The notes under the pieces: generated by a model
Seen by the model: the letters and a program-made list of their open reading frames with translations, nothing else
Told to the model about the DNA's origin: nothing
Database searches by the model: none
Source of the DNA: an uncultured Nitrospiraceae bacterium
GTDB lineage: Bacteria > UBA10199 > SBBF01
Assembly (NCBI GenBank): GCA_964592255.1
Contig: CAZQCI010000001.1
Span: 15,885-79,884 of the forward strand
DNA length: 64,000 nt
Reading direction: 5' to 3'
Shown: piece by piece, positions 17,841 to 56,621 of the stretch
Numbering within the stretch: the first letter of the stretch is position 1
How the letters are laid out: each line of letters opens with the position of its first letter
Made by a program: the position numbers and the translations under genes

Positions 17841-19763
17841 TTAATAGGGTAACTCCAGCATTCTATTTTCTAGCGGAGATAAACTAGTATCACGGCAATC
17901 TAAGTCTTCTGTACTGCAATAAAGGGAATAGGAAATTCCTTCTTCTAAGGAAATAATGTGAGCCTCCTGGTCGTCGTAAAGCCAAATGGGGCGTGACAAC
18001 CCTTCAAAGCTTACGTCCCTAAGAGATATTTGGATAGAACCCAGGTTCATCGCACTTGCGTAGATCATATAATCCAAATCAGTTGATAAAAAATCAGCAT
18101 CCGTCAGATGTAATTGAGTATCTATTCCATTAGCAACTAAATGGATGTCACTGTCTTCAAAATCAACATCGTCAATCCTCGTTACTCCACCCGTTATATC
18201 AGCGGCCTGTCCCTCCATACTCCAACCGTGAATTTCAATCTCACTGTCAGAAAGAGACACGGCACCTACTTGATCCCGAGAATCGTTATTACCATAAGCT
18301 TCCAACTCTTCTATGCTACCCTGGGACGCCACCATAGTTAAAGCAGTATTAAAGTCTCCGGAATAATTATCAATCAAAGTCAAACCGGAAATATCGACCA
18401 CACTGCCAGTGACGTAAAGTGCCCCGACAAAACTTGAGTTATTTCCCGAAAAAACCACATCATTCATCGTCAGATAAGAAGAGGATACCCTTAAGGCTCC
18501 AGAAGCCATACTCTTATTATCCTTCAAAATGACGTTATCCAAAGTAACCCGACTAGACATAGCCGAAAGTGCAGACCCACTATGACCAGACCTATCAAAG
18601 CCGCCAGTCATAGTTAAATTAGAGAGATGAACTTCGCCCCCTGAGACTTCGAGAATAGAACCTACATTGCCTCCCGAAATCACTGTTTGAGAAGGATCTT
18701 CACTTAAACCAAGAATAGAAAAGGATCTTTCAGAAACCGCATAATTTACAAGCGTGTAGGTACCTGGTTCCACGGAAATTGTACCGCCATCTTGAAGCCT
18801 GTCGAAGGCATCATCTAGCGTGGTCACATCAGCCCGAAATGAAGGCCCTACACGCACATTTTCTCTGAAAAAATTTTCATCTTCCGGATCATTCGATAGG
18901 GCTGGCAATAAAAGGTTATCGGAGTGACCAAAGCAAGAAATAACAGCCAACTGTTCATCGACAAAACCAGGATTGCAAGAATCGGGCGATATATAATCCA
19001 TGATATTGGGTTCCGGATGGAACACATTACCTTCGGCATCAACAACATCCTCATCACAAGTAATCACGCATTCATCATCAATGTCACAATAAGCCGCACC
19101 CGGATCCGCTTCGGTACCGCACAAATAATCTCCAGTATAATAACATTCCTCATCGGTTGAACACTCGTCGTCACTACGGGAAACCAGTTCATCCGTAAAA
19201 GGCAAAGATTCTTCTTCCAATTTATCATGTCGATCGGAGGATTGCTCCCCAAAGGTATGTTCTAATCCGAACTTATGGCCTAGTTCGTGGGACCAAGCCT
19301 TTTCACCGCTGCTTGTCGAAAGGAAAATAGCCAAAGAATTACTTAAAGACTGCCCTCCCCATTTGGTTATTTCGTCATTACGATTAACATCTCTGATTTT
19401 ATCGGTTAAAAAGATGTTAATGACGTCCGAATCACTATACTGCTTATCAATTTCTTTATTATTCTGTTTGTCTCCACCGATCCAGACAGTATCGGCCCAC
19501 GAGTTATTTTTGATCGAATCGATGTCAGTAACAATAAATTGTATGCCTGATTTGGCAAAGTCTTCGTTAACCTTTTGAATATATGCATAAATTTCTTCAG
19601 GGTCCAACCCTCCAACCCCTTGCTCATTGACAAGATTATGAATAGCTACACGATAGGTTGTGACTTCAGTAGGAGATTCAAAAGATTGAAGATAAGAAGG
19701 ATCCCAACATTCTTGGGTATCTTGATTGGAACAACCAGCAGTTAACAACAATAAGGGCAACAT
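17841..19763 (-). CDS. Lipoprotein with an N-terminal metzincin zinc-metalloprotease domain (M43/pappalysin-like) fused to a C-terminal right-handed parallel beta-helix (pectin-lyase-fold) region
   Basis: Lipobox LLLTAGCSN. Zinc motif HELGHKFGLEHTF (HExxHxxGxxH). Cys/Asp-rich linker. Repeated beta-helix turns (GGNVGSILEVSGGEVHLSNLTMTGG; SSFVGALYVTGSVVDISGLTLIDN). Confidence 0.6.
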   Translation of the reverse strand: MLPLLLLTAGCSNQDTQECWDPSYLQSFESPTEVTTYRVAIHNLVNEQGVGGLDPEEIYAYIQKVNEDFAKSGIQFIVTDIDSIKNNSWADTVWIGGDKQNNKEIDKQYSDSDVINIFLTDKIRDVNRNDEITKWGGQSLSNSLAIFLSTSSGEKAWSHELGHKFGLEHTFGEQSSDRHDKLEEESLPFTDELVSRSDDECSTDEECYYTGDYLCGTEADPGAAYCDIDDECVITCDEDVVDAEGNVFHPEPNIMDYISPDSCNPGFVDEQLAVISCFGHSDNLLLPALSNDPEDENFFRENVRVGPSFRADVTTLDDAFDRLQDGGTISVEPGTYTLVNYAVSERSFSILGLSEDPSQTVISGGNVGSILEVSGGEVHLSNLTMTGGFDRSGHSGSALSAMSSRVTLDNVILKDNKSMASGALRVSSSYLTMNDVVFSGNNSSFVGALYVTGSVVDISGLTLIDNYSGDFNTALTMVASQGSIEELEAYGNNDSRDQVGAVSLSDSEIEIHGWSMEGQAADITGGVTRIDDVDFEDSDIHLVANGIDTQLHLTDADFLSTDLDYMIYASAMNLGSIQISLRDVSFEGLSRPIWLYDDQEAHIISLEEGISYSLYCSTEDLDCRDTSLSPLENRMLELPY

Positions 19764-32843: not shown

Positions 32844-34697
32844 ATGAAAACTTCCCCTATCTTCTTGGCTCTATTTTCACTAGCCCTTTACGGTTGCAGC
32901 GGAAAATCTTCAGACACTCACGACAACGCCATCACCATTGCTCCCTTGGAAAGAACACAAAACCCCAATGGAGGCACAGTGAAAGGGTCATCATCTAACA
33001 CCCCAAATACATCTTCTAATCCAAGCCCTAGTGGAAGCACCTCTGGAAGAGGCGGAAGCACAGGCTCCGAAAGAGATACAGACCCAAGTGGCGGCACAAG
33101 TTCAACCACACCCGAAGAGGAAACCGACACAACACCTCACGTCTCTTCTATTTCGATGGAACGCATCGGACGTTTTTCAACTGGCCTTTTTAATGAAGAT
33201 GCTCAAACGATTTTAGATTACGACTCCATCAATGAACGGGCTTTTGTCATTAATTCCAGCAGCGCTCACCCTTCTGTGTCTGTGCTGGACATGAGTGACC
33301 CGTTAAACATTGTCGAATATAGCGCCCATTCAGCCATCGAGCCGTATTATCCCGGTACAACCCCATTGGGTATTTCAATTTTTAAAACATACATTGCGAT
33401 TTCATACCAAGCTAATCCTAAAACCGATAATGGTTACGTAGTTTTTTACGACTCTAACACTTTTGCCGTATTGGCCAAAGTTACCGTAGGAGCAAATCCA
33501 GACATGATTACTTTTACGCCGGATGGTACTAAAGTTATTGTCGCCAATGAGGGCGAGCCGAGTGACGATTACACGACAGATCCCGTAGGTTCTGTGGGCA
33601 TTATTGAGCTTCCTGATGACATCACCGATTTGAGAAATAGCGATGTAAAAACAGCCAGCTTTACAAGTTTTAATGCTCAAAAAATAATTTTAAAAAACAG
33701 AGGCGTTCATTTTTCAACAACAGGGGCTAGTGTTGCCAAGGATTTAGAACCAGAATACGTTACGGTTTCGGACGATGGAGCCACCGCCTGGGTTGTCTTA
33801 CAAGAAAACAATGCTTTAGCCGTTGTCGATATTAACAGTGCCACCGTTACCAAAATACTTCCCTTGGGTGTAAAAGATTTTAATGACTCTTCTTTAAGCC
33901 ATGGACTTGATCCAAGTGATAAAGATGGCGGGGCCAACATTAACAATTGGCCTGTGTATGGCATGTACCAACCGGATGGTATTGCCAGTTATACCGTAGA
34001 TGGGAACACCTACCTCGTCACCGCTAACGAAGGAGACGGTCGGGATTATACTGGGTTTAGTGAAGAAGCTCGTGTGGAAGACTTAACTCTAGACTCTACG
34101 GCCTTTGCTGCTTATCCCGATCTAGATGATGAAGAAAATTTAGGCCGACTGAAAGTCACCTCTTCCAAAGGAGATACGGATGGAGATGGCGATTATGATG
34201 CTTTGTATTGTTTTGGAACACGCTCCTTTTCTATTTGGTCCAGTGTTGGAGAATTAGTTTATGACAGCGGCGCCGATTTTGAAGAAAAAATTCTAGAAAC
34301 TGCTGGAGAAGATTATTTCAACACAGACTATAATTCTAACGAAGGAGACTCCCGTAGTGATAATAATGGTCCTGAACCGGAACCCCTAACTGTCGGCACC
34401 ATTTATGATAAAACTTATGCTTTCATCGGTATGGATAGAGAAGGAGGAATTATGATCTATGATATCACCACTCCCTCCTCTCCTACTTTTGTGGATTATG
34501 TCCTTAACCGCAATTTCACCGCTGTCCCCTCCGACCGTTTGATCACCAGCGATGATGGAACCAGTGACTTATCTCCAGAAGGGATCCGCTTTATCTCTGC
34601 GGAAGACAGCCCCACCCAAGCTCCGCTTCTTCTTGTCGGTAATTCAGTAAGCGGCTCTACTACGGCCTATGAAATCGACGTGACACTCACGGAATAA
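32844..34697 (+). CDS. Lipoprotein with an S/T/G/P-rich linker and a large beta-propeller-like domain (choice-of-anchor-I/phytase-like repeats)
   Basis: Lipobox LALYGCSG. Linker …SSSNTPNTSSNPSPSGSTSGRGGSTGSERDTDPSGGTSSTTPEEETDTT. Repeated motifs of type LVTANEGDGRDY, VIVANEGEPSDDY and YCFGTRSFSIW. Confidence 0.5.
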   Translation: MKTSPIFLALFSLALYGCSGKSSDTHDNAITIAPLERTQNPNGGTVKGSSSNTPNTSSNPSPSGSTSGRGGSTGSERDTDPSGGTSSTTPEEETDTTPHVSSISMERIGRFSTGLFNEDAQTILDYDSINERAFVINSSSAHPSVSVLDMSDPLNIVEYSAHSAIEPYYPGTTPLGISIFKTYIAISYQANPKTDNGYVVFYDSNTFAVLAKVTVGANPDMITFTPDGTKVIVANEGEPSDDYTTDPVGSVGIIELPDDITDLRNSDVKTASFTSFNAQKIILKNRGVHFSTTGASVAKDLEPEYVTVSDDGATAWVVLQENNALAVVDINSATVTKILPLGVKDFNDSSLSHGLDPSDKDGGANINNWPVYGMYQPDGIASYTVDGNTYLVTANEGDGRDYTGFSEEARVEDLTLDSTAFAAYPDLDDEENLGRLKVTSSKGDTDGDGDYDALYCFGTRSFSIWSSVGELVYDSGADFEEKILETAGEDYFNTDYNSNEGDSRSDNNGPEPEPLTVGTIYDKTYAFIGMDREGGIMIYDITTPSSPTFVDYVLNRNFTAVPSDRLITSDDGTSDLSPEGIRFISAEDSPTQAPLLLVGNSVSGSTTAYEIDVTLTE

Positions 34698-54668: not shown

Positions 54669-54788
54669 TCACAGGCAAGAATTTTGTAGAAAATTTGATA
54701 CAACATCCAACTCATAAGCCCAGCAGACAAACTCAAAATACCAAAAACAACAACATACAAATGAATCATCTATTGACAAAATTTATTA

Positions 54789-54812
54789 ATTGAATAATTA
54801 ATTAATTATTCA
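54789..54812. promoter_or_regulatory. Perfect 24-bp AT-rich palindrome (candidate operator) in the promoter region of the Cys-rich protein gene
   Basis: TTGAATAATTAATTAATTATTCAA equals its reverse complement. An extra TTGAA half-site follows immediately. It ends 13 nt before the AGGAGGG RBS of the 54838 gene. Confidence 0.45.
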
Positions 54813-54837
54813 ATTGAACAATTAAAAAGGAGGGAAT

Positions 54838-55974
54838 ATGGAAGCTTCAGCAATCAGCCTGGCTATTCTCATGATAGGTTGTGAGAGCAGTGACAAGAGC
54901 GAGACAGATTCATCTAGCAGTGAAGCTACTCTTTGTGACGAAGGCCCCTCTAATGATGAGGCCTGGGAATCCAATAACAGCTTAAGTGAAGCAACCCCCG
55001 TTGAGTGCGGACAAGAAATTGATGCGACTATTGCAGGTAGTACTAATCGATTTAACTCAGATACTGACTGGTATGTCCTAGAGCTTGATCGTAAAACAGC
55101 ACTCAGCGTGGATGTGTATAAATATAATTATTGCAGGCAAGTAGATCTTTACCTTTACGATAGTGATCGTAACCCATTAAATACGGATGAGTTTGTTGAT
55201 GGCACTGTCTATATTGAAGCAAACGCTGCATCTGAAGACGACCCCGATCCCGAATATTATCATCTCACAATATCATGCGAGCAATGTCCAGACACCCCTG
55301 CCACAACCGAATGTTATGAGGGAGATTTATGGTCTTATACCGAATGTGGAGATCTGATTGAACAAGTGCAAGATTGTGGAAACGAGGAGACTGATTGCAA
55401 TGAGGGTGCATGCTGTGACCCGGAAGCCAGAGGTAGCAGTGAATGTTATGACGGTGATGCCTGGTATAATAACGAGTGTGGGGACTTGCTTGAAAAGAAA
55501 AGAGAGTGCGGTAGCGATGATTGCAATGAAGGGAAATGCTGTGACCCGGAAGAACCCAACGGCAATCTTGTTTGCAACGGTGATGATTTATGGACTTCCA
55601 GCGAATGTGACACACCACTGGAGTTTGAAGAAGACTGTGGTAGCTGCGGCTGTAATAGCGCTTTTGATAAATGCGAAAAAGATGTAAATTATTACTATTG
55701 TAACATTTATGCTGAGGATGAGGCCGATATCTATTACCTCAATTTCTGCACTACGGATGGAAATATAGAGTATTATGACACATGCCCTGAAGGAACATAT
55801 TGTCATGTCAATTGGCCAGACCAAACTTCAGTGAGCTGTGTAGATTACTATGAGATGACCTCTACCCAACCACCTTTCGAACCATCAGGATGGGAAGGAG
55901 TCCAAACTTTTTCAGGCATGAACAGCGTGCTTGATGAATGCACCCTAGTCCCTTCTGAGACTACAGCGGAATAA
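54838..55974 (+). CDS. Secreted Cys-rich protein: PPC (pre-peptidase C-terminal)-like domain followed by three tandem Cys-rich modules
   Basis: Short N-terminal hydrophobic segment with a possible lipobox (LMIGCESS). PPC-like DTDWYVLELDRKTALSVDVY. Three repeats of about 42 aa: ECYEGDLWSYTECGDLIEQVQDCGNEETDCNEGACCDPEA, ECYDGDAWYNNECGDLLEKKRECGSDDCNEGKCCDPEE, CNGDDLWTSSECDTPLEFEEDCGSCGCN. Confidence 0.5.
   Translation: MEASAISLAILMIGCESSDKSETDSSSSEATLCDEGPSNDEAWESNNSLSEATPVECGQEIDATIAGSTNRFNSDTDWYVLELDRKTALSVDVYKYNYCRQVDLYLYDSDRNPLNTDEFVDGTVYIEANAASEDDPDPEYYHLTISCEQCPDTPATTECYEGDLWSYTECGDLIEQVQDCGNEETDCNEGACCDPEARGSSECYDGDAWYNNECGDLLEKKRECGSDDCNEGKCCDPEEPNGNLVCNGDDLWTSSECDTPLEFEEDCGSCGCNSAFDKCEKDVNYYYCNIYAEDEADIYYLNFCTTDGNIEYYDTCPEGTYCHVNWPDQTSVSCVDYYEMTSTQPPFEPSGWEGVQTFSGMNSVLDECTLVPSETTAE
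55309..55680 (+). repeat. Three imperfect tandem coding repeats (about 126 nt each) encoding the Cys-rich module
   Basis: Protein-level triple repeat as above. It is in-frame and diverged at the nucleotide level. Confidence 0.5.
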
Positions 55975-56015
55975 AATCCTTTGCATCTTTTTGAACCCCT
56001 TTATAATAAAGGGAA

Positions 56016-56621
56016 ATGGCTAACAAAAAAGATCCCGAGCTGGAAGTTCAGCGTAAAACGCGTATTATGCTGGCTACTTTTAAGCTCATGTCCCAAAAAT
56101 CCGTAGAAGAAATGACGATGGCGGATGTCGCCAAAGAAAGTTCGATTAGCCCGGGACTGGTTTCCTATTACTTCCAAAATAAAGAAAACCTGATTGTAGA
56201 AACCGCCCACTTCATCCTCAACATTCGTAAAGAAGGCCTTTTCACCTTGGCTAAAATGAAAACATCCGCAAAAAATCGGATTAAAAAATTTGCGGAATTA
56301 GCACTTCCTTCTCAAGATGAAGTGGAAATCATCGCTAAATTCTTCATTCACCTATGGATGTATAGCCAAAAAAGCCCCCGCGTTTCTGAAGTTTTTATGG
56401 GCCTTGTTCACGAACAGCAAGATTTTGTGGAAAAAATAGCCCAACAATTAAGACAAGAAGGGGTTGTCAAAAAAGGCAATATGAAAGCCAAGGCTTTTCT
56501 CATCAATGCCGTTTTAGACGGATTAGGAATCCATATGACCTTAAAGCCCGAATGGACCAAAAAACAAATACACAAAATGTTTCACACCATGATTAATCAA
56601 ATCATTCAAAGCGATATCTAA
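56016..56621 (+). CDS. TetR/AcrR family transcriptional regulator
   Basis: N-terminal HTH TMADVAKESSISPGLVSYYFQNKENL. 201 aa. Confidence 0.8.
   Translation: MANKKDPELEVQRKTRIMLATFKLMSQKSVEEMTMADVAKESSISPGLVSYYFQNKENLIVETAHFILNIRKEGLFTLAKMKTSAKNRIKKFAELALPSQDEVEIIAKFFIHLWMYSQKSPRVSEVFMGLVHEQQDFVEKIAQQLRQEGVVKKGNMKAKAFLINAVLDGLGIHMTLKPEWTKKQIHKMFHTMINQIIQSDI

What the first reader, a model, noticed from the sequence alone, without database searches (positions are those of the whole stretch)
54838..55974. Secreted protein with a PPC-like domain and three tandem Cys-rich modules of about 42 aa
After a PPC-type domain (DTDWYVLELDRK…) the protein repeats a module three times. Each module carries conserved Cys positions (ECYxGDxW…ECGDLxExxxxCGxxxCNEGxCCDPE). 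The C-terminal third is also Cys/Tyr-rich.
Modules like this resemble disulfide-rich extracellular binding or adhesion repeats. The tandem array could vary in copy number between strains.
Basis: seen in the sequence. Interest (0 to 1): 0.5.

Follow-up and report, generated by a model that had tools for sequence, protein, structure and literature searches.

The report
Acidic lipoprotein: PPC domain plus Cys-rich repeats
This gene encodes a very acidic, probably lipid-anchored exported protein that joins a collagenase-type (PPC) binding domain to three tandem copies of a 6-cysteine module of about 42 residues; the module recurs in other bacterial surface proteins but has no curated family or solved structure, so the finding is real but only moderately unusual.

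Summary
ORF 54838-55974 (+) encodes 378 aa behind a strong AAGGAGG ribosome-binding site.

- **N-terminus.** It ends in a lipobox (LMIGC). Cys15 is invariant in the only two relatives that share the architecture.
- **Residues ~37-149.** This is a true PPC / collagen-binding-type beta-sandwich. A profile of the domain hits ColG/ColH collagen-binding domains at E 6e-21 to 1e-11. The AF2 model best matches ColH CBD 3jqw.
- **Residues 156-285.** These hold three tandem 6-Cys modules. m1 vs m2 scores z = 19 against shuffles. m3 is diverged, at z = 5-6.
- **Residues 286-340.** This stretch is Cys/Tyr-rich and may be a fourth, degenerate module. That is not significant.

The module (consensus CYNGDVYWYDSCGxxxxxxxxCGxxGCxxGxC plus a floating sixth Cys) occurs in arrays of 1-11 full copies in at least 13 other protein clusters. 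Some of these also carry lectin-like or adhesion-type domains. It matches no Pfam or NCBIfam model and no PDB sequence, and the fold searches were not significant.

The most likely role is an envelope-anchored, disulfide-stabilised, possibly Ca2+-dependent binding protein. The ligand is unknown. Rapid copy-number variation is unlikely, because the repeats share only 68% DNA identity. Only 3 members of this architecture were found, in a library of 1.84 billion cluster representatives that stands for about 15 billion proteins. Interest is moderate to low.

The parts
54827..54833 (+). Ribosome-binding site AAGGAGG, 4 nt before the ATG
   Evidence: Read directly. An in-frame TAA at 54823-54825 fixes the start codon.
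54838..55974 (+). Whole ORF, 378 aa plus stop codon
   Evidence: The identical protein exists once in the 15-billion-protein collection, from an NCBI contig of 83,113 bp.
54838..54882 (+). Signal peptide with lipobox (MEASAISLAILMIG|C15)
   Evidence: It matches the PROSITE PS51257 pattern, and the most hydrophobic 11-residue window of the protein starts at residue 5. Cys15 is invariant in P0004 and P0014. Two other proteins in the window have similar short lipoprotein signals, one of them also without Lys/Arg.
54883..54945 (+). Acidic Ser/Thr/Asp/Glu-rich linker (aa 16-36)
   Evidence: Sequence. AF2 pLDDT is below 50 for residues 1-41.
54946..55284 (+). PPC / collagen-binding-domain-type beta-sandwich (aa ~37-149), with E44-x-N46-N47 and D75-x-D77-W-Y79 motifs
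   Evidence: phmmer hits to PPC-repeat proteins at E down to 1.9e-20. Profile A2 against PDB hits ColG/ColH CBDs at E 6e-21 to 1e-11. 23 of 30 homologous segments hit PF04151. AF2 block-mean pLDDT is 73-93. Foldseek's best match is 3jqw, TM 0.66, probability 1.0. Direct BLASTP against ColH s3 gives E 0.001.
55303..55437 (+). Cys-rich module 1 (aa 156-200; Cys 159, 170, 180, 187, 192, 193)
   Evidence: AF2 predicts a three-stranded sheet plus a mini-hairpin.
55438..55566 (+). Cys-rich module 2 (aa 201-243; Cys 203, 214, 224, 229, 234, 235)
   Evidence: It is 59% identical to module 1 at protein level and 68% at DNA level.
55567..55692 (+). Cys-rich module 3, diverged (aa 244-285; Cys 246, 257, 267, 270, 272, 279). 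Its CGSCGC variant is also seen in P0027.
   Evidence: z = 5-6 against m1 and m2. HMM E 2.4e-8. Comparison with P0027.
55693..55857 (+). C-terminal Cys/Tyr-rich region (aa 286-340; 5 Cys, 10 Tyr), conserved in P0004 and P0014. Possibly a fourth, degenerate module.
   Evidence: Alignments A1 and A5. hhalign against the module profile puts it in the right register but is not significant (E 0.031, probability 1.6%). AF2 confidence is low.
55858..55971 (+). C-terminal tail (aa 341-378), absent from the relatives, predicted disordered, with one extra Cys (368)

Best explanation
The gene encodes an exported, N-terminally lipid-anchored envelope protein of a diderm bacterium. I read it as a non-enzymatic binding or adhesion protein.

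**Proposed sequence of events**
1. The protein is exported through Sec and processed as a lipoprotein at Cys15.
2. A short, acidic, disordered linker tethers a PPC / collagen-binding-domain-type beta-sandwich. This domain keeps the E-x-N-N and D-x-D-W-Y motifs that align with the EPNN and SDQDYF stretches of ColH s3. From memory, these are the Ca2+-binding residues of the clostridial domains.
3. Distal to it lies a rod of three (possibly four) 6-Cys modules of about 42 aa. Each is predicted to form a three-stranded antiparallel sheet plus a two-stranded mini-hairpin, presumably held by three disulfides. Each displays conserved aromatic residues ([YF]-x-G-D-x-[WY]-[WY]).
4. The PPC domain and/or the aromatic faces of the modules bind an extracellular polymer, either protein or glycan.

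**What is shown:** ORF, RBS, lipobox pattern, PPC homology and fold, significance of the repeats, recurrence of the module in other extracellular multi-domain proteins, and the predicted module secondary structure.

**What is inferred:** lipidation, disulfide formation, Ca2+ binding, the ligand, and cellular localisation (inner membrane, outer membrane or surface).
For: - **Gene.** ORF, RBS and start codon are clear.
- **Lipobox.** Regex match and the hydrophobic maximum of the protein at residues 3-15. Cys15 is invariant in relatives. Other lipoproteins in the window have the same short signals, LTAGC and LYGC.
- **Diderm context.** mreBCD-pbp2-rodA lies upstream and a PpiD/SurA_N-like chaperone gene downstream.
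- **PPC domain.**. PPC domains of ColG/ColH are collagen-binding domains, and ColG binding is abolished by EGTA (PMC6168687).
- **Repeats.**
- **Module family.** 74 copies in 15 proteins plus further clusters. Co-occurring domains are Laminin_G_3, CARDB, Lcl_C and FGE-sulfatase.
- **Structure.** AF2 pLDDT is about 85-90 for the modules.
- **Composition.** 7.9% Cys in an otherwise Cys-poor set of proteins, and a net charge of about -73, which the neighbours do not share. This fits an oxidising, cation-rich extracytoplasmic location.
Against: - The signal peptide has no Lys or Arg in its n-region (MEAS...), so it fails the second PROSITE lipoprotein rule.
- P0004 has Asn at lipobox position -1. 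P0014 carries about 65 extra N-terminal residues before its hydrophobic segment.
- The query's PPC domain does not reach any Pfam threshold on its own.
- PPC domains normally follow a peptidase domain. None is present here.
- The mature protein has 29 Cys, an odd number, so at least one is unpaired.
- No conserved gene neighbourhood exists among the three family members.
Confidence: 0.6

Rival explanations
1. Periplasmic or envelope inhibitor. The PPC-like beta-sandwich would act like PliG, the periplasmic inhibitor of g-type lysozyme, or as a protease-binding or inhibitor domain. The Cys-rich modules would serve only as a stable scaffold.
For: PliG structures (4dy5, 4dy3, 4dzg) appear in the profile search at E 0.0035-0.0056. 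One is Foldseek rank 2 with probability 1.0.
Against: The match to collagenase CBDs is 10-18 orders of magnitude stronger. The E-x-N-N / D-x-D-W-Y motifs are those of the CBD/PPC group. Nothing in the neighbourhood relates to lysozyme defence.
Confidence: 0.07
2. Metal-binding or redox protein. The 30 cysteines and the extreme acidity would serve to bind metal ions (metallothionein-like, or cation storage/buffering) rather than to form structural disulfides.
For: 7.9% Cys, 88 acidic residues, a net charge of about -73 and an odd number of Cys in the mature protein.
Against: The cysteines sit at fixed positions of a beta-rich module. The count of six per module is conserved even when the sixth Cys moves, which is the signature of paired disulfides. 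AF2 predicts compact beta modules at pLDDT about 85-90. The protein carries an export signal. There are no CxxC-rich or His-rich metal motifs typical of metallothioneins.
Confidence: 0.06
3. Passive stalk or spacer protein. The Cys modules would only form a rigid rod, and the protein would have a structural envelope role, for example spacing or tethering, given its position next to the mreBCD-pbp2-rodA cell-shape operon.
For: In most other carriers the module array lies between an N-terminal signal or anchor and a C-terminal globular lectin-like domain, as a stalk would. The gene is divergently adjacent to mreB.
Against: Here the modules are distal to the anchor and are followed only by a further Cys/Tyr-rich region, so they hold nothing out from the membrane. 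The two relatives are not next to mre genes, so the adjacency is probably coincidental.
Confidence: 0.15

Closest known systems
PPC domain (Pfam PF04151) as in the collagen-binding domains s3a/s3b of ColG and s3 of ColH (PDB 1nqd, 3jqw, 5iku)
   Same: It is a homologous beta-sandwich of about 110 aa: profile E 6e-21 to 1e-11, Foldseek TM 0.66 to 3jqw. The conserved E-x-N-N and D-x-D-[WY]-Y motifs align with EPNN and SDQDYF of ColH s3.
   Different: It is not attached to any peptidase. It sits near the N-terminus of a lipoprotein rather than at the C-terminus of a secreted enzyme. The query alone is below Pfam detection. It has extra cysteines: C57 and C147 are invariant in its small family, and C99 is unique to this protein.
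Unnamed 6-Cys module of about 42 aa (CYNGDVYWYDSCG...C....C..G.C), found in tandem arrays in uncharacterised secreted proteins (P0005, P0006, P0008, P0010, P0012, P0017-P0019, P0021, P0027, P0028, P0030, P0033-P0036; one from a Candidatus Omnitrophota MAG)
   Same: Same Cys scaffold, same aromatic hairpin motif, a period of 41-49 aa, and six Cys per unit with a floating sixth Cys.
   Different: The query has only three copies, placed after a PPC domain. The sixth Cys is placed as a CC doublet at the module end (m1, m2) or as CGSCGC (m3). The query modules are much more acidic. The family has no Pfam or NCBIfam model and no solved structure.
CBM14 / peritrophin-A-type chitin-binding modules (Der p 23, chitotriosidase CBM14, Blo t 12)
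Choline-binding / glucan-binding / CROP beta-hairpin repeats (CW_binding_1 type; LytC, DSR-E, TcdA)
   Same: An aromatic hairpin motif ([WY][WY][FY]D..G) resembles the first hairpin of the module. These are the top Foldseek hits (E 0.055-0.06, probability about 0.5), and there are weak profile hits to glucansucrases (E 1.5).
   Different: The matches are not significant. Those repeats are about 20 aa long, contain no cysteines and form a solenoid. This is resemblance only.
NCBIfam NF041328, MXAN_6577-like cysteine-rich protein
   Same: It is the only curated model that touches the Cys-rich region at all (residues 148-274 against profile positions 12-133 of 145).
   Different: It scores 11 bits against a cut-off of 100 (E 0.29). 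None of the other module carriers hits it even at E <= 10. The match is probably compositional.

Membership tests
PPC domain (PF04151) / clostridial collagen-binding domain | Sequence match to the family model | tested here: inconclusive
   The query alone gets no Pfam hit at E <= 10. Its homologues do: 23 of 30 segments hit PF04151, with best E 1.9e-11. The profile that includes the query hits ColG/ColH CBDs at E 6e-21. Homology is therefore supported transitively.
PPC domain (PF04151) / clostridial collagen-binding domain | Beta-sandwich fold superposable on a solved CBD | tested here: met
   AF2 block-mean pLDDT is 73-93 over residues 41-150. Foldseek's best PDB match is 3jqw (ColH s3): TM 0.66 normalised to the target, probability 1.0, E 1.2e-3.
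PPC domain (PF04151) / clostridial collagen-binding domain | Conserved E-x-N-[ND] and D-x-D-[WY]-Y motifs. That these are the Ca2+ ligands of ColG/ColH CBDs is recalled from the literature, not tested here. | tested here: met
   E44, N46, D77 and Y79 fall in the invariant or nearly invariant columns of A2. They align with EPNN and SDQDYF of ColH s3. Actual Ca2+ binding cannot be tested here.
PPC domain (PF04151) / clostridial collagen-binding domain | Location C-terminal to a secreted peptidase (the 'pre-peptidase C-terminal' context) | tested here: not met
   No peptidase domain is present in the protein. The domain is N-proximal.
Bacterial lipoprotein (PROSITE PS51257 rule) | Lipobox pattern {DERK}(6)-[LIVMFWSTAG](2)-[LIVMFYSTAGCQ]-[AGS]-C, with the Cys at positions 15-35 | tested here: met
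   The regex matches AISLAILMIGC, with the Cys at position 15.
Bacterial lipoprotein (PROSITE PS51257 rule) | At least one Lys or Arg in the first seven residues | tested here: not met
   The N-terminus is MEASAIS. Another clear lipobox protein in the window, MLPLLLLTAGC, also lacks Lys/Arg.
Bacterial lipoprotein (PROSITE PS51257 rule) | Acylation of the Cys and cleavage by signal peptidase II | not testable with these tools
   This needs globomycin, palmitate labelling or mass spectrometry. Conservation of Cys15 in P0004 and P0014 is consistent with it.
Unnamed 6-Cys CYxGDxYWxDSCG module family | Significant match to a profile built from modules of other proteins, with the C1/C12/C22/C27/C32 scaffold plus a sixth Cys | tested here: met
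   Iterated HMM: m1 E 5e-11, m2 E 5e-12, m3 E 2e-8. There are six Cys per unit.
NCBIfam NF041328 (MXAN_6577-like cysteine-rich protein) | Score at or above the curated cut-off of 100 bits | tested here: not met
   11 bits, E 0.29.
CBM14 / peritrophin-A chitin-binding module | Fold match and Pfam match | tested here: inconclusive
EB module (PF01683) | Pfam match above the gathering score | tested here: not met
   The query has no hit. 5 of the 28 module triplets (the query region and 27 from other proteins) give faint hits, best E 6e-5. The one hit seen in a full-length carrier, in P0021, scored 17.4 bits against a cut-off of 24.3.

The most novel reading that the evidence does not exclude
The 6-Cys module of about 42 aa (CYxGDxYWxDSCG...C....C..G.C) would be a previously undescribed, widely scattered extracellular domain family with its own fold and an aromatic ligand-binding face (for glycan or another polymer). 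It occurs in uncultured lineages, including Omnitrophota. This protein would represent a rare architecture (3 members found) in which the module is fused to a stand-alone, lipid-anchored, collagenase-type Ca2+-binding domain. That would point to a new class of bacterial surface receptors or adhesins.
Probability: 0.3. Interest if true: 0.45.

Novelty: new variant of a known kind. Interest (0 to 1): 0.3.

Why it matters
- **For annotation.** This hypothetical protein can now be described as a lipoprotein with a PPC/CBD-type domain plus three or four disulfide-rich modules.
- **More generally.** The analysis delineates a recurrent 6-Cys module. It has no Pfam or NCBIfam model and no solved homologue. 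It forms arrays of up to 11 copies in secreted proteins of diverse, mostly uncultured bacteria. A family definition and one experimental structure would annotate many such proteins.
- **Limits.** It does not bear on a long-standing open question. Modular, Cys-rich extracellular proteins are a familiar kind of protein.

Tried and rejected
- **Direct family searches.** Pfam and NCBIfam scans of the query found nothing except an 11-bit compositional hit to NF041328.
- **Word-indexed searches of 5.8 billion proteins.** The query found only itself. Alignment A1 found only P0014 and the query. The module alignment A6 found 9 small, mostly unnamed proteins.
- **Genome and metagenome scans.** Two genome-contig scans, with A1 and with the neighbouring MreC, found nothing, so the organism could not be named. 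The metagenome-contig scan with A1 found nothing.
- **Exact look-ups.** The query's own contig is not on record. The five neighbouring proteins found in the collection are all unnamed singletons at 90% identity.
- **Fourth module.** hhalign of the module profile against the C-terminal Cys/Tyr region was in the right register but not significant. I therefore treat a fourth module as a possibility only.
- **Literature.** Searches for MXAN_6577, for module peptide strings and for the SRA runs of the relatives returned nothing relevant.
- **Other checks.** Rfam found no RNA family in the window. Tandem Repeats Finder found no DNA-level repeat in the gene.
- **Rejected: a composite alignment** of PPC and module fragments for AF2, because MAFFT stretched the PPC fragments across the repeats.
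- **Rejected: a spurious ORF.** The gene has a strong RBS, domain homology and a confident fold.
- **Rejected: halophile-type general acidity.** Most neighbouring proteins are not acidic.
- **Not possible: disulfide connectivity**, because model coordinates are not exposed.

Full report
**1. The observation**

The ORF lies exactly where stated: 54838-55974 on the + strand, 378 aa. A strong Shine-Dalgarno sequence (AAGGAGG, 54827-54833) precedes the ATG. An in-frame TAA four codons upstream excludes a longer N-terminus.

The protein has 30 Cys (7.9%), 24 Tyr, and 88 Asp+Glu against 14 Lys+Arg. The mature part has a net charge of about -73 and a calculated pI of about 4. Most neighbouring proteins are neither acidic nor Cys-rich. 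Two other lipoproteins in the window are moderately acidic. The composition is therefore specific to this protein rather than a trait of the whole proteome.

**2. The repeats are real**

I compared the modules by local alignment against 2000 composition-preserving shuffles.

| Pair | Result |
|---|---|
| Module 1 (aa 156-200) vs module 2 (aa 201-243) | score 154 vs shuffle mean 33; z = 19; 0/2000 |
| Module 3 (aa 244-285) vs module 1 | z = 5.0; 1/2000 |
| Module 3 vs module 2 | z = 6.3; 0/2000 |
| C-terminal Cys/Tyr region vs any module | no detectable similarity |

An HMM built from the three modules finds exactly these three copies. It finds nothing else in the six-frame translation of the window.

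At DNA level m1 and m2 are only 68% identical, with no identical run longer than 16 nt. Tandem Repeats Finder reports nothing inside the gene. The duplication is therefore old. The gene lacks the long identical DNA repeats that would favour frequent slippage or recombination.

**3. Relatives**

The word-indexed search of 5.8 billion proteins returned only the query itself. The exhaustive phmmer run over 1.84 billion cluster representatives returned 32 proteins at E <= 1e-3, including the query itself. The 31 others fall into three classes.

- **PPC-repeat proteins.** These hold 3-12 tandem copies of a domain that matches residues ~38-120.
- **Module-array proteins.** These hold arrays of a Cys-rich unit that matches residues ~150-285.
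- **Full architecture.** Two short proteins, P0004 (290 aa) and P0014 (335 aa), share the whole architecture at about 28% identity.

P0004 and P0014 come from short Logan contigs of very different G+C content (29.5% and 44.9%). Their gene neighbours are unrelated to those here. In the three-way alignment the following Cys are invariant: 15, 57, 147, 150, 159, 170, 246, 257, 267, 279, 288, 304, 316, 322 and 334. The relatives have about 1.5 modules where the query has three.

**4. N-terminus**

The sequence MEASAISLAILMIG-C15 matches the PROSITE lipoprotein pattern. It is also the only strongly hydrophobic stretch in the protein. It lacks the usual Lys or Arg in the n-region.

Two other proteins in the window have equally short lipoprotein signals. 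One is MLPLLLLTAGC, which also has no Lys/Arg. The other is MKTSPIFLALFSLALYGC.

Lipidation is the most likely fate, for three reasons:
- Cys15 is invariant in the relatives.
- The mature part has 29 Cys.
- The homologous domains occur in proteins that look secreted.

It remains an inference.

The flanking genes are mreB-mreC-(mreD)-pbp2-rodA on the opposite strand. Downstream lie genes for a TetR-family regulator, a PpiD/SurA_N-like chaperone, the CCA-adding enzyme, a TPR protein and CoaE. This indicates a diderm chromosome core, not a mobile element.

**5. The PPC domain**

The query domain alone gets no Pfam hit. The evidence for homology is as follows.

- An alignment of the domain with 29 homologous segments (A2) was searched as a profile against PDB sequences. 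It hits the collagen-binding domains of ColG and ColH (5iku, 3jqw, 9lqj, 4hpk, 1nqj, 1nqd, 5sv5) at E 5.7e-21 to 9e-9. It hits PliG lysozyme inhibitors weakly, at E about 4e-3.
- 23 of the 30 segments individually match PF04151.
- Direct BLASTP of the query domain against ColH s3 gives 25% identity over 72 aa, E 0.001. It aligns E44-S-N-N with EPNN and S-D75-T-D77-W-Y with SDQDYF.
- AF2 models residues 42-150 as a confident beta-sandwich. Its best PDB match is ColH s3, 3jqw, with TM 0.66 and probability 1.0.

PPC domains of ColG and ColH are collagen-binding domains, and EGTA abolishes binding by ColG (PMC6168687). That the E-x-N-D and D-x-D motifs are the Ca2+ ligands is my recollection of the ColG s3b structure papers. 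I did not test it here.

**6. The Cys-rich module**

Iterating the module HMM over the retrieved proteins gives 74 copies in 15 proteins. The core consensus is CYNGDVYWYDSCGVPEELKEDCGSAGCSNGAC. The period is 41-49 aa, and nearly every unit has six Cys.

Five Cys are fixed: C1, C12, C22, C27 and C32. The sixth Cys moves between several positions:
- right after C22, as a CC doublet (P0005, P0012, P0028);
- between C22 and C27, as CG.C.C (P0027 and the query's m3);
- right after C32, as a CC doublet (the query's m1 and m2, P0004, P0014);
- 2-5 residues later (P0006, P0008, P0017, P0019, P0021, P0030).

A conserved count with a mobile position is what one expects for three disulfides per unit.

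Three to eleven full copies occur per carrier outside the small PPC-module family. Some carriers hold an additional domain: Laminin_G_3, CARDB, Lcl_C or FGE-sulfatase (C-type-lectin-like). Further small carriers include one from a Candidatus Omnitrophota MAG.

Nothing curated covers the module.
- There is no Pfam or NCBIfam hit on ten carriers.
- Only faint EB-module hits appear, in 5 of 28 triplets.
- The module profile finds no PDB sequence below E 0.25.

**7. Predicted structure of the modules**

Two AF2 runs used alignments enriched with three-module fragments. Both give pLDDT of about 85-90 for residues 152-285. Each module is a three-stranded antiparallel sheet followed by a two-stranded mini-hairpin.

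- **Foldseek.** No match falls below E 0.05. The top hits are choline-binding, glucan-binding and CROP hairpin repeats.

These are leads only. The C-terminal region (residues 286-378) is modelled with low confidence. hhalign places residues 286-340 in register with the module (DIYYLNFC against DvYWxDsC), but without significance.

**8. Interpretation**

The best reading is an exported, lipid-anchored, disulfide-stabilised and strongly acidic binding protein. The Ca2+-type PPC/CBD domain lies proximal to the membrane. A rod of aromatic-faced Cys modules lies distal to it.

The ligand is unknown. Collagen-like or other fibrous proteins are suggested by the PPC domain. Glycans are suggested by the aromatic hairpins and the lectin-like partner domains in other carriers. 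Both are plausible guesses.

The rivals are a PliG-like inhibitor, a metal-binding protein and a passive stalk. They are less well supported, for the reasons given under each.

**9. Novelty**

The PPC domain is a new, divergent member of a known family in an unusual, peptidase-free context. The Cys module belongs to an apparently undescribed but recurrent repeat family.

The full architecture is very rare. Three members were found in a library of 1.84 billion cluster representatives that stands for about 15 billion proteins.

This is useful for annotation and for defining a domain family, but it is not a surprising kind of protein. The organism could not be identified. Every window protein found in the collection is an unnamed singleton at 90% identity, so the lineage is poorly sampled.

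Noticed in passing
window 54780-54825 (core 54790-54813): A perfect 24-nt palindrome, TTGAATAATTAATTAATTATTCAA, is unique in the window. A third 12-nt half-site with one mismatch follows at 54814-54825, just upstream of the RBS of the Cys-rich gene. A TTGACA hexamer lies at 54772-54777. A TetR-family gene follows the Cys-rich gene directly (56016-56621). The palindrome is a candidate operator, so the Cys-rich gene may be under TetR control.
   Followed up: partly
window 55980-56007: A good sigma-70-like promoter match (TTTGCA-16-TATAAT, 10 of 12) lies in the 41-nt gap between the Cys-rich gene and the TetR gene. No terminator-like site was found in the gap after the Cys-rich gene. The TetR gene may therefore have its own promoter as well as read-through transcription.
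   Followed up: no
window 17841-19763 (-): Another acidic lipoprotein (MLPLLLLTAGC, net charge -13 per 100 aa). It carries a zincin motif, HELGHKFGLEH, and gives weak Reprolysin / M66 Pfam hits. A Cys-rich stretch and a C-terminal region that looks like beta-helix repeats follow. It is possibly a surface metalloprotease.
   Followed up: partly
window 32844-34697 (+): A third lipoprotein (…LALYGC) with a long Ser/Thr/Gly/Pro-rich linker and a full-length 'choice-of-anchor I' domain (PF22494, E 1e-124). It is also acidic.
   Followed up: partly
L001 2045-3052 (P0014): This relative has a strong RBS at its annotated ATG and about 65 residues before the hydrophobic FGATGC segment. In that organism the conserved Cys may lie after an internal signal-anchor rather than a classical N-terminal signal peptide.
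   Followed up: no
P0006 (aa ~670-982) and P0017 (aa ~470-730): Two module-array proteins share a conserved C-terminal region of about 300 aa that has no Pfam hit (…GSCIDEGWITGGCAFD… / …GSCLDDGWLTLGCGFD…). It may be another unannotated domain that travels with the Cys module.
   Followed up: no
whole window: Every window protein found by exact look-up is an unnamed singleton at 90% identity in a collection of 15 billion proteins. Two genome-contig scans found no relative of the Cys-rich protein or of MreC. No Rfam family reaches its threshold anywhere in the 64 kb. The source is a poorly sampled lineage.
   Followed up: partly
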